DNA of 64,000 nucleotides from a phage. Every line of letters begins with the position of its first letter. Within the stretch, counting starts at the first letter, position 1. Of the stretch, positions 25,792-25,911 are shown one piece after another. A model generated the notes under the pieces. It was not told the origin of the DNA. It searched no databases and worked only from the letters and a program-made list of their open reading frames with translations. The DNA lies in NCBI GenBank assembly GCA_012557565.1, contig GCA_012557565.1_3926.1, one strand, 5' to 3'. The position numbers and the translations under genes are program-made.

Positions 25792-25820
25792 TTGACAAAG
25801 TGTTTAATACCCTTTAATAT
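25792..25820 (+). promoter_or_regulatory. sigma70-like promoter, first of two upstream of tRNA cluster
   Basis: TTGACA, 17-nt spacer, TAATAT; inverted repeat AGGGTATT / AATACCCT spans the -35. Confidence 0.5.
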
Positions 25821-25881
25821 GTTCTACATAGAAACGAAAAAGAAGTTTTCTGAAATAAATCAAATTATTTTAAAAAACCTC

Positions 25882-25911
25882 TTGACAGACACTAAAAAAT
25901 AGTGTTATAGT
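25882..25911 (+). promoter_or_regulatory. sigma70-like promoter with hairpin in spacer
   Basis: TTGACA, spacer containing ACACTA-AAAAAA-TAGTGT hairpin, TATAGT. Confidence 0.5.

What the first reader, a model, noticed from the sequence alone, without database searches (positions are those of the whole stretch)
25792..25911. Promoters with a stem-loop between -35 and -10 recur outside the early array
Promoters at 1737-1765 (spacer GGGGCTGAAAAGCCCC), about 13938-13970 (GGGGGCTTCAAAGCCCC), 25792-25820 and 25882-25911 (ACACTA-AAAAAA-TAGTGT) all place an inverted repeat in or across the spacer. This shared architecture across distant loci suggests a common regulatory logic, or that the elements double as recombination or transcript-processing sites.
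Basis: seen in the sequence. Interest (0 to 1): 0.4.

Follow-up and report, generated by a model that had tools for sequence, protein, structure and literature searches.

The report
Promoters nested inside RNA hairpins
In this Felix O1-like phage, many host-type promoters sit directly after the previous gene's stop codon and share their sequence with a hairpin, the same composite promoter/stem-loop design already described as PeSLs in T4-type phages, so it is a real but essentially known kind of element.

Summary
The window is a Mooglevirus/Felixounavirus-type phage (Ounavirinae). All four sequences are present as described. Three of the four hairpins are non-random and conserved.

- **S1** (1737-1765, presumed rIIA / rIIB junction) and **S2** (13938-13967) carry the same GGGGCT-N4-AGCCCC hairpin, filling the 17-18-nt spacer.
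- **S3** (25792-25820) lies in a 10-bp hairpin (25784-25815) that includes part of the -35.
- **S4** (25882-25911) is a weak AT-rich 6-bp palindrome, broken in most relatives and probably fortuitous.

The pattern is wider than reported. Promoters at 24292, 61949(-), 2972 and 12475 and the five TTTACA cassettes of the early array are also enclosed by hairpins. Seven of 20 promoter windows fold with z <= -3.

Pairing favours the transcribed strand: imperfect positions are G.U, and the sense strand was the more stable in 27 of 30 hairpins. The same hairpin also occurs without a promoter, at 52093 and at the Kolesnikvirus junction orthologous to S1. Orthologous promoters in a distant genus carry different stems.

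Most embedded hairpins lack a U-tract, so they are not canonical terminators.

Best reading: a 3' hairpin of the upstream transcript (attenuator or stabiliser) nested in the next promoter, PeSL-like. Cassettes at S2 and in the array mark ORF insertion/deletion junctions.

The parts
1737..1765 (+). S1: sigma70-like promoter between the presumed rIIA (23-1729) and rIIB (1809-2930). The hairpin GGGGCT(1743-1748)-GAAA-AGCCCC(1753-1758) fills the 17-nt spacer.
   Evidence: z -3.8. In 30 relatives the arms are invariant and the loop is GAAA, GCAA, TTGA or TCAA. rIIB annotation comes.
13938..13967 (+). S2: promoter 4 nt after the stop of a sporadic 58-aa ORF. The hairpin GGGGGCT(13945-13951)-TCAA-AGCCCC(13956-13961) sits in the 18-nt spacer. 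It lies at an ORF insertion/deletion junction.
   Evidence: In relatives the stems are GGGGC/GCCCC and GGGGT/GCCCC. The cassette plus the 82-aa ORF is absent in Salmonella Felixounaviruses, and EC106 has a junction inside the GGGGC arm.
25784..25820 (+). S3: first of two tandem promoters upstream of the tRNA array (TTGACA 25792-25797, TAATAT 25815-25820). It lies inside the hairpin AAAGGGTATT(25784-25793)/AATACCCTTT(25806-25815) and has a partial U-tail, TTTAATATGTT.
   Evidence: flagged terminator-like; z -3.5; 99.5% paired, and the only changes are U-A to U.G. T-score 2.97.
25882..25911 (+). S4: second tandem promoter (extended -10 TGtTATAGT), 21 nt upstream of tRNA-Pro. It has a 6-bp AT-rich palindrome ACACTA(25889-25894)/TAGTGT(25900-25905). 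The promoter is conserved; the hairpin is not.
   Evidence: 74% paired, two pairs broken in 15-16 of 20 relatives; z -2.0.
24288..24330 (+). Additional case: promoter TTGACA(24292)-N17-TAGAGT whose -35 (GACA...) and -10 (...TGTC) lie in opposite arms of an 11+4-bp hairpin, 10 nt after the stop at 24281.
   Evidence: z -4.65; 95% paired in 11 distinct relatives, and one pair occurs as G-C, G.U and A-U.
61921..61949 (-). Additional case: promoter-like TTGACA-N17-TACCTT, 5 nt after the stop of the 676-aa gene. The 9-bp hairpin AAGGTGCTC/GAGTACCTT spans the spacer and the -10.
   Evidence: z -4.73. Distant relatives carry a different hairpin, GATGCACA-agga-TGTGTATC, in the same promoter.
8118..10628 (+). 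Early-array type A cassettes. TTTACA-T-GGGGTT(T)AT..-loop-..AT(A)AGCCCC hairpins lie at 8124-8154, 8593-8623, 8936-8966, 9538-9567 and 10599-10628. They span the spacer and the -10. An outer helix (CTTTA/TAAAG) encloses the whole promoter.
   Evidence: The copies differ by compensatory changes and by a matched one-base deletion in both arms.
2972..3010 (+). Promoter TTGAAA-N16-TATAAT with the -10 in the loop of a hairpin (2978-3010). It lies directly after the canonical terminator at 2944-2967.
   Evidence: (z -3.0).
12475..12515 (+). Promoter TTGACA-N17-TAGATT with a duplicated TTGAC in the spacer. The hairpin CCCCTTGACA../..TTCGAGGGGG (12484-12515) spans the spacer and the -10.
   Evidence: (z -3.0).
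52093..52110 (+). The same AGGGGCT-N4-AGCCCCT hairpin with no promoter, between late genes 50907-52082 and 52128-54503.
   Evidence: In 28 relatives the stem is kept and the loop is hypervariable. In Felixounaviruses it is followed by TTTT.
7691..13725 (+). Type B cassettes. GGGGC-N6-GCCCC or GGGGAGGG-N5-CCTTCCCC hairpins lie just downstream of a TAAAGT -10, at 7691-7706, 10260-10277, 11120-11135, 12053-12073, 12792-12812, 13382-13402 and 13705-13725. Each is followed by CCTAAACTGGAGA-N7-9-ATG.
   Evidence: Breakpoints against relatives fall in these cassettes.

Best explanation
These are composite promoter/stem-loop cassettes of the PeSL type.

The hairpin is an RNA element of the upstream cistron. 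It forms in transcripts that read through from the preceding gene and gives them a structured 3' region. That region could act as an attenuator or weak terminator, as a barrier to 3' exonucleases, or both.

The hairpin is nested in the next gene's sigma70 promoter because the promoter starts only 4-18 nt after the stop codon. The 17-18-nt spacer is free of sequence constraint and exactly fits a 6-7-bp stem plus a tetraloop. Where stems are longer, the arms borrow the -35 and -10 bases themselves.

Transcripts initiated at the promoter start downstream of the hairpin or inside its 3' arm, so they escape it. Each gene is therefore a self-contained, insulated cassette.

As a by-product, the repeated cassettes serve as short homologies for gain and loss of ORFs.

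Shown: the presence of the hairpins, their enrichment, their conservation, their strand bias, their independence from the promoter, and the insertion/deletion junctions. Inferred: what the hairpin does to the RNA. S4 is probably just a promoter with a chance palindrome.
For: 1. Enrichment: 3 of 23 spacers have a stem of 6 bp or more, against 0.08 expected. Seven of 20 promoter windows fold with z <= -3.
2. Placement: every promoter whose -35 lies within 20 nt of a co-directional stop codon has a hairpin in its cassette. These are S1, S2, S3, 24292, 61949(-), the five type A and the type B cassettes. Promoters with no abutting upstream gene (23761, 59229-) or with a separate terminator in front (14320, 7652) have none over the promoter.
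3. Strand-specific pairing: the sense strand is more stable than the antisense in 27 of 30 hairpins, with about 30 G.U pairs against 2. Substitutions in relatives keep pairs through U.G on the sense strand (S3, 24292, S2, the late hairpin).
4. The hairpin outlives the promoter. The same GGGGCT-N4-AGCCCC hairpin sits between late genes with no -35 or -10. Kolesnikvirus phi63_307 keeps a hairpin (GGGCTG-gaaa-CAGCCC) at the junction orthologous to S1, upstream of its rIIB homologue, with no recognisable promoter.
5. The design is maintained with different sequences. One distant contig (L059 = L129) has other stems at both orthologous promoters. Type A copies differ by compensatory changes.
6. The same GGGGC/GCCCC stems, followed by a T-run, form the canonical terminators of this genome (22694-22681; Felix O1 t23).
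7. [quoted passage not shown] It also matches an actual RB49-like sequence, JSE TTGACA-GGGGATCggcGATCCCC-TATACT.
8. Insertion/deletion breakpoints fall in the cassettes.
Against: - Most embedded hairpins lack the U-tract of an intrinsic terminator. T-scores are S1 1.80, S2 1.36 and types A/B 0.1-0.2, against 3.8-5.2 for the canonical terminators here and a genome 95th percentile of 2.23. Efficient termination is therefore doubtful, and the actual RNA function is untested.
- Covariation is thin. In close relatives the S1 and 61949 stems never vary, and most changes elsewhere are one-sided. The shuffle controls of the count of structure pairs are not exceeded.
- The hairpin coordinates used for the sense/antisense comparison were chosen on the sense strand, and cassette copies are not independent.
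- Promoter activity itself is inferred only from consensus match and conservation.
- The promoter at 2972 has a hairpin even though a canonical terminator precedes it.
Confidence: 0.6

Rival explanations
1. DNA-level control of the promoter. In this reading, the inverted repeat is an operator for a dimeric phage or host regulator. Alternatively it extrudes as a cruciform under supercoiling, changing the -35/-10 geometry and so timing or shutting off the promoter.
For: - The repeat lies exactly where repressors act.
- The S1 and S2 arms are identical in sequence (GGGGCT/AGCCCC) and are invariant in relatives.
- The arms of S3 are 10 bp long with centres 22 bp apart.
Against: - The arms differ completely between S1/S2, S3, S4, 24292, 61949 and type A, so there is no shared operator.
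- Imperfections are G.T on the sense strand, which are A.C mismatches on the other strand. That is poor for a cruciform and irrelevant to a duplex-binding protein.
- The same hairpin occurs without a promoter.
- Orthologous promoters keep a hairpin but not its sequence.
Confidence: 0.1
2. The primary role is recombinational. In this reading, the conserved cassettes exist as portable linkers that move ORFs in and out (PeSL-style modular shuffling), and the hairpin is a hotspot for strand exchange or template switching.
For: - The 58-aa ORF next to S2 is present in only 22 of about 254 related phage records.
- The 82-aa ORF with its S2 cassette is absent in some relatives.
- EC106 joins TTGACAAGGGGC to the T-tail of the terminator at window 14300-14330.
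- All array breakpoints against six relatives lie in cassettes, with overlapping repeats.
- Loops of the same hairpin occur as reverse-complement pairs in relatives: TTGA/TCAA, TTAT/ATAA, TGAT/ATCA, TTCA/TGAA.
Against: - S1, S3, 24292 and 61949 sit at fixed positions next to conserved genes, with no insertions or deletions at S1, S3 or 24292 in the relatives examined.
- Most breakpoints map to the CCTAAACTGGAGA ribosome-binding module rather than to the hairpin.
- Any repeated sequence would recombine, so this may be a consequence rather than a function.
Confidence: 0.15
3. RNase III (or other endonuclease) processing sites. In this reading, these sites cut polycistronic early RNA into monocistronic messages, as between the T7 early genes.
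For: The long forms have two helices separated by a small internal loop, with 15-18 bp in total. These are type A (3+5+10 bp), 24292 (4+11 bp) and 61949 (7+9 bp). They lie between cistrons and pair on the sense strand only.
Against: - S1 and S2 have only 6-7 bp, too short for RNase III (established knowledge: about two helical turns are needed).
- No sequence resemblance to known sites was tested.
- Rfam finds nothing but tRNAs.
Confidence: 0.1
4. Coincidence: short palindromes in AT-rich promoter spacers with no function. This applies to S4 only, not to the set as a whole.
For: S4 is AT-rich and 6 bp long, with a modest z (-2.0). It is perfect only in the Mooglevirus clade. In Felixounaviruses TAGTGT is TAATGT (a C.A mismatch) and the outer pair is lost. 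The conserved TG of its 3' arm is explained by the extended -10.
Against: For S1, S2 and S3 chance is excluded by the shuffles and by conservation.
Confidence: 0.05

Closest known systems
PeSLs (promoter-early stem-loops) of T4-type phages RB49/phi1, PST/T4 and nt-1/KVP40 (Arbiol et al. 2010, PMC2839356; Comeau et al. 2014, PMC4122927)
   Same: - Layout: the stop codon of the upstream gene in an AT-rich stretch, a near-consensus sigma70 promoter, a GN-loop-CN stem-loop (A3G3...C3T3 in nt-1, like S3), then SD and ATG.
- Stem-loop position: between -35 and -10, overlapping either box, or just downstream of -10.
- G-T pairs in the stems.
- Clustering in a region of small ORFans.
- Insertion/deletion junctions at the cassettes.
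- An RB49-like genome (JSE) shows TTGACA-GGGGATCggcGATCCCC-TATACT, the same build as S1.
   Different: - The host lineage is Ounavirinae (Felix O1-like), not Straboviridae.
- Some cases (S1, S3, 24292, 61949) sit at fixed positions beside conserved genes or a tRNA array, not next to ORFans.
- In several, the hairpin encloses the whole promoter.
- Terminator activity and minicircle formation, shown for PeSLs, are untested here.
- The Felix O1 genome paper lists the array cassettes only as direct repeats.
Canonical intrinsic (Rho-independent) terminators
   Same: A GC-rich hairpin directly after a stop codon, pairing on the sense strand, built from the same GGGGC/GCCCC blocks as the true terminators of this genome.
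   Different: There is no U-tract after S1, S2, S4 or the type A/B cassettes. S3 is borderline.
Overlapping or coupled terminator-promoter arrangements in bacteria
   Same: The termination signal of one unit and the initiation signal of the next share sequence. In this window the T-tract of the terminator at 14300-14317 is fused to the -35 TTGACG at 14320. The promoter at 19145(-) starts transcription inside the 5' arm of the terminator at 19115-19092.
   Different: A 2026 preprint titled 'Widespread coupling of promoters and terminators of transcription in bacteria' appeared in searches but could not be read. No detailed comparison was possible.
Hairpin promoters of phage N4 virion RNA polymerase
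   Same: A short hairpin is part of a promoter.
   Different: N4 promoters are recognised as single-stranded hairpins by a phage-encoded RNA polymerase and have no -35 or -10 (my knowledge). Here the boxes are sigma70 consensus and lie outside the hairpin or in its arms. Felix O1-type phages encode no RNA polymerase (PMC3185647).

Membership tests
PeSL (promoter-early stem-loop cassette) | [quoted passage not shown] | tested here: met
   S1-S4 all have TTGACA, -10 boxes TAGAAT, TACTAT, TAATAT and TATAGT, spacers of 17-18 nt, and A/T-rich upstream flanks. The hexamers are conserved in relatives.
PeSL (promoter-early stem-loop cassette) | Stable stem-loop (GN-loop-CN or A3G3-loop-C3T3) between -35 and -10, or overlapping one of the boxes | tested here: met
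   Met for S1 and S2 (G4-5...C4 in the spacer), S3 (A3G3...C3T3 over the -35), type A, 24292 and 61949. Not met for S4, which is AT-rich and not conserved.
PeSL (promoter-early stem-loop cassette) | Bounded by the upstream stop codon and by the SD plus start codon of the downstream gene | tested here: met
   S1: stop at 1727-1729, ATG at 1809. S2: stop at 13931-13933, ATG at 14010. S3 and S4 precede tRNA-Pro (25939) rather than an ORF.
PeSL (promoter-early stem-loop cassette) | Repeated family concentrated in a plastic region of small ORFans | tested here: met
   The early array at 7650-14000 has five type A and seven type B cassettes, and S2 lies at its end. S1, S3 and S4 lie outside it, beside conserved genes or the tRNA array.
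PeSL (promoter-early stem-loop cassette) | Insertion, deletion or replacement junctions between related phages coincide with the cassettes | tested here: met
   Met for S2 and the array. No insertions or deletions at S1, S3 or S4 in 24-30 relatives.
PeSL (promoter-early stem-loop cassette) | The stem-loop terminates or attenuates upstream transcription, and the promoter is active (reporter assays) | not testable with these tools
   Only indirect evidence is available: sense-strand pairing and the absence of a U-tract.
PeSL (promoter-early stem-loop cassette) | Recombination between neighbouring cassettes yields encapsidated minicircles | not testable with these tools
   Needs inverse PCR on infected cells or virions.
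Intrinsic terminator | GC-rich hairpin directly downstream of a gene, on the sense strand | tested here: met
Intrinsic terminator | U-rich tract immediately 3' of the hairpin | tested here: not met
   T-scores are S1 1.80, S2 1.36, S4 1.84 and types A/B 0.1-0.2, against 3.8-5.2 for nine canonical terminators in the window. S3 at 2.97 is borderline.
Operator / repressor-binding palindrome | The same half-site sequence shared by the co-regulated promoters and conserved as duplex sequence | tested here: not met
   Arm sequences are unrelated among S1/S2, S3, S4, 24292, 61949 and type A. Orthologous promoters in a distant genus have different arms.
N4-type single-stranded hairpin promoter | Phage-encoded RNA polymerase and a promoter without -35/-10 boxes | not tested
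   The window was not screened for an RNA polymerase gene. The Felix O1 paper reports none. The elements here do have consensus sigma70 boxes.

The most novel reading that the evidence does not exclude
Nesting a promoter inside a U-tract-less hairpin may be a selected design across Ounavirinae, not mere compaction. In this reading the hairpin halts or releases RNA polymerase arriving from upstream exactly on the next promoter. Each gene is then insulated, and polymerase may be handed over for re-initiation. That would be a termination/insulation signal outside the canonical hairpin-plus-U-tract rule. Supporting this, the design is kept at orthologous promoters through complete turnover of the stem sequence.
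Probability: 0.2. Interest if true: 0.6.

Novelty: new member of a known kind. Interest (0 to 1): 0.35.

Why it matters
- It extends PeSL-type composite promoter/stem-loop cassettes from T4-type phages to the unrelated Felix O1-like subfamily. This suggests the design arose independently or spread widely among virulent coliphages that rely on host RNA polymerase.
- It explains repeats that the Felix O1 genome paper left uninterpreted.
- It gives a concrete mechanism for the mosaic gain and loss of small early genes in this group, which is used for phage typing and therapy.
- The lack of U-tracts makes these hairpins a convenient natural set for asking what a bare hairpin does to elongating E. 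coli RNA polymerase or to mRNA decay.
- For annotation, it warns that terminator finders will miss these elements, and that promoter finders should expect structured spacers.

Tried and rejected
- An Rfam scan of the whole window found only tRNAs.
- Pfam on the flanking proteins gave nothing that bears on regulation. It returned DUF2828/DUF7788 for the 471-aa gene and nothing significant for the 568-aa gene or for rIIB.
- Distant homologues of the 471-aa gene (L023-L030) come from unrelated phages. Their downstream regions were uninformative.
- The first attempt to fetch S2 relatives failed because of a frame error. The corrected search found only four loci, so I used the annotated phage collection instead.
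- A literature search for Felixounavirus transcript mapping was badly posed and returned nothing relevant. No 5'/3'-end data for this group were found.
- The 2026 preprint on promoter-terminator coupling could not be opened. The PeSL supplement with the tested stem-loop sequence is not held.
- The MAFFT alignment of type A cassettes (A2) puts the arm gaps out of register. I therefore did not run the count of structure pairs on it, and folded each copy separately instead.
- I considered a collection-wide pattern scan for TTGACA-GGGG...CCCC. I did not run it because about 14 specified bases would give thousands of chance hits.
- I considered and rejected an N4-type hairpin promoter, a common operator, and chance (except for S4).

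Full report
**What the window is.** A 2-kb stretch around the finding is 98-99% identical to Shigella phages ESh19, Sf14 and Sf16 and to Citrobacter phages of the genus Mooglevirus. It is 80-90% identical to more than 200 Felixounavirus records. A run of 25 tRNA genes starts at 25939. The gene after S1 is annotated rIIB in relatives. The Felix O1 record is opened just upstream of rIIA (PMC3185647), so S1 most likely lies between rIIA and rIIB. This group has no RNA polymerase of its own, and its transcription programme is described as unknown.

**Checking the observation.** All four sequences are there.
- S1: TTGACA-GGGGCTgaaaAGCCCCt-TAGAAT, at 1737-1765.
- S2: TTGACA-aGGGGGCTtcaaAGCCCC-TACTAT, at 13938-13967.
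- S3: TTGACA-N17-TAATAT, at 25792-25820.
- S4: TTGACA-gACACTAaaaaaTAGTGT-TATAGT, at 25882-25911.

For S3 the repeat is larger than described. AAAGGGTATT (25784-25793) pairs with AATACCCTTT (25806-25815), so the first two bases of the -35 are in the 5' arm and the rest is in the loop. The pattern scanner also flagged S3 as terminator-like.

**Chance.**
- Of 23 TTGACA-N16-18-TAnnnT matches, three have a perfect stem of 6 bp or more within the spacer.
- Shuffling each spacer gives 0.08 on average, and 0 of 2000 shuffles reach three.
- Only 0.88% of 20-nt genome windows have such a stem.
- Twenty roughly 50-nt promoter windows were folded against dinucleotide shuffles.
  - z <= -3: promoters at 1737, 2972, 9532, 12475, 24292, 25792 and 61949(-).
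  - z about -2: 8118, 13938, 25882 and 31244.
  - No excess structure: the other nine.
S4 alone would not be significant.

**Relatives.**
- S1 (30 loci): the -35, the arms GGGGCT/AGCCCC and the -10 are essentially invariant. The loop is GAAA, GCAA, TTGA or TCAA. Two loci have one C.A mismatch.
- S3 and S4 (24 loci): the S3 helix is 99.5% paired, and its only arm changes are U-A to U.G. In the S4 helix the outer pair and a central C-G pair are broken in 15-16 of 20 distinct sequences (TAGTGT becomes TAATGT). The conserved TGT in the S4 3' arm is the extended -10 motif. S4 is a conserved promoter with a clade-specific, probably fortuitous palindrome.
- S2:
  - The stem core persists as GGGGC-ataaaa-GCCCC or GGGGT-gtaaaa-GCCCC. 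The latter has a U.G pair on the sense strand.
  - The 58-aa ORF next to S2 is present in only 22 phage records, whereas the finding's own region matched 254 records.
  - In Salmonella Felixounaviruses this ORF is followed directly by the sequence that follows the 82-aa ORF in the window. The S2 cassette and its gene are therefore missing there.
  - Phage EC106 joins TTGACAAGGGGC to the T-tail of the terminator found at window 14300-14330. That is a deletion with its crossover in the GGGGC arm.

**More cases, and what they show.**
- Promoter at 24292: its -35 (GACAGGTTCTA) and -10 (TAGAGTCTGTC) lie in opposite arms of an 11-bp helix closed by a 4-bp outer helix.
  - In 11 distinct relatives 95% of cells are paired.
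  - Four of the five varying pairs stay paired, through G.U on the sense strand. The fifth (19-35) is unpaired in 7 of the 11, where the -10 is TAAAGT rather than TAGAGT.
  - One pair occurs as G-C, G.U and A-U.
- Promoter at 61949(-): a 9-bp helix spans the spacer and the -10. Three Kolesnikvirus-like contigs have a different helix (GATGCACA-agga-TGTGTATC) in the same promoter. One of those contigs also has a different helix (GTGGTC-taataa-GGCCAC) at the promoter orthologous to S1.
- Kolesnikvirus phi63_307 keeps a hairpin (GGGCTG-gaaa-CAGCCC) at that junction, upstream of its rIIB homologue, but has no recognisable promoter.
- The AGGGGCT-N4-AGCCCCT hairpin recurs at 52093 between two late genes without any promoter. 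In 28 relatives its stem is kept and its loop is hypervariable. In Felixounaviruses it is followed by TTTT, like a terminator.
- The five type A cassettes of the early array (TTTACA-T-GGGGTT...) fold so that the whole promoter is enclosed by two helices. Copies differ by compensatory substitutions and by a matched one-base deletion in both arms.

**RNA or DNA?** I folded 30 hairpins, promoter-embedded ones and canonical terminators, on both strands. The sense strand was more stable in 27 of them, with about 30 G.U pairs against 2. Two caveats apply: the coordinates were chosen on the sense strand, and cassette copies are not independent. The same bias also shows in the substitutions seen in relatives. 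This argues for pairing in the transcript, not in duplex DNA or a cruciform.

**Terminators?** Nine canonical terminators in the window score 3.8-5.2 on a U-tail measure. S3 scores 2.97, S1 1.80, S2 1.36, S4 1.84, and types A/B 0.1-0.2. The genome mean is 0.85 and the 95th percentile 2.23. Except perhaps for S3, these hairpins are therefore not canonical intrinsic terminators. They could still attenuate transcription, pause the polymerase, block 3' exonucleases or be cleaved. The sequence cannot tell which.

**Placement.** Every promoter whose -35 starts within about 20 nt of the stop codon of a co-directional gene has a hairpin in its cassette. These are S1, S2, S3, 24292, 61949(-), type A and type B. 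Promoters with no abutting gene (23761, 59229-) or with a separate terminator in front (14320, 7652) have none over the promoter. The promoter at 2972 is an exception. The simplest reading is that the hairpin belongs to the upstream gene's transcript. It is nested in the promoter because the spacer is the only free sequence in an intergenic region of 60-80 nt. Transcripts from the promoter itself start beyond the hairpin.

**Comparison with what is known.** Arbiol et al. 2010 (PMC2839356) describe PeSLs in phages RB49 and phi1 with these features:
- the upstream stop codon lies in an AT-rich region;
- the promoter is a consensus sigma70 promoter;
[quoted passage not shown] - G-T pairs are present in the stems;
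- SD and ATG follow.

One stem-loop terminated transcription in a lacZ fusion, and recombination between PeSLs produced ORFan insertions, deletions and minicircles. Comeau et al. 2014 (PMC4122927) add A3-4G3-loop-C3T3-4 stems, which resemble S3. An RB49-like genome fetched here, JSE, shows TTGACA-GGGGATCggcGATCCCC-TATACT and two promoters with a hairpin over the -10.

The window meets every sequence-level feature of PeSLs, including insertion/deletion junctions. All breakpoints between the window's early array and six relatives fall in cassettes, with overlapping repeats. In the searchable literature PeSLs appear only in papers on T4-type phages, a cyanophage and haloarchaeal viruses. The Felix O1 paper lists the array cassettes merely as 57-bp and 39-bp direct repeats. 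Their presence in Ounavirinae therefore looks undescribed, but the kind of element is known.

**Verdict.**
There is a shared logic with links to recombination and to the transcript, but no sign that the hairpin controls its own promoter.
- Novelty: a new member of a known kind.
- The open question is functional: what does a hairpin without a U-tract do to read-through transcripts?

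Noticed in passing
window 1749-1752 and 52100-52103; loci L031-L060 and L077-L104: Among relatives, the tetraloops of the conserved GGGGCT/AGCCCC hairpins occur as reverse-complement pairs. At S1 they are TTGA (13 loci) and TCAA (9). At the late hairpin they are TTAT/ATAA, TGAT/ATCA and TTCA/TGAA. This looks like whole-hairpin or loop inversion, for example by template switching at a perfect palindrome, rather than point mutation.
   Followed up: partly
window 14260-15900, especially 14743-15433 (+): A noncoding stretch of about 1.6 kb carries 12 same-strand copies of CTTGTTA, several exactly 11 nt apart. The window has 31 copies in total, against 16 expected. This is an iteron-like array, possibly a replication origin, a packaging site or a protein-binding region.
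   Followed up: partly
window 7290-7480 (+), also 2979-2988: TTGTGCAGGT occurs three times exactly and once nearly, inside roughly 40-75-nt repeats (tttcaWWtttgtgcaggt...ctccaaaggg...) between a terminator and the first early promoter. A related ATGTGCAGGA lies in the hairpin of the promoter at 2972.
   Followed up: no
window 19092-19145 (-) and 14300-14349 (+): There are two other ways of overlapping a terminator and a promoter. At 19145(-), TTGACA-N18-TATGAT is followed at once by the terminator GGGAGCTATC-gaaa-GGTGGTTCCC-TTTTTT, so a transcript from this promoter would start inside the 5' arm. At 14300, the terminator's T-tract is fused to the -35 TTGACG of a promoter.
   Followed up: no
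window 12475-12503 (+), 23761-23789 (+), 56452-56426 (-): Three promoter-like sites carry a second TTGAC(A) inside their own spacer, 12-13 nt after the first: TTGACAataccccTTGACA, TTGACAttcctcTTGACA and TTGACAaactctcTTGAC.
   Followed up: no
window 10200-10250, 12745-12785, 13655-13695 (+): Type B cassettes extend into the upstream coding sequence. Several unrelated small ORFs end with the same ...(K)LA(M/T)..NKNK* tail, because the -35 (TTGCAA) and the spacer of the next promoter are encoded in their last roughly 12 codons.
   Followed up: no
loci L109-L128 downstream of the homologue of window 61955-63985 (-): Many Felixounavirus relatives carry an extra ORF immediately after the 676-aa gene, containing a conserved GACCCCGAAACAGGGGTC (YDPxTGV). 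It replaces the 61949 promoter-hairpin region and is possibly an inserted homing-endonuclease-type gene.
   Followed up: no
window 7731-14010 (+): Nearly every early-array gene is preceded by the same ribosome-binding module, CCTAAACTGGAGA(A/C/T)T-N5-7-ATG. Most insertion/deletion junctions against relatives map to this module rather than to the hairpins.
   Followed up: partly
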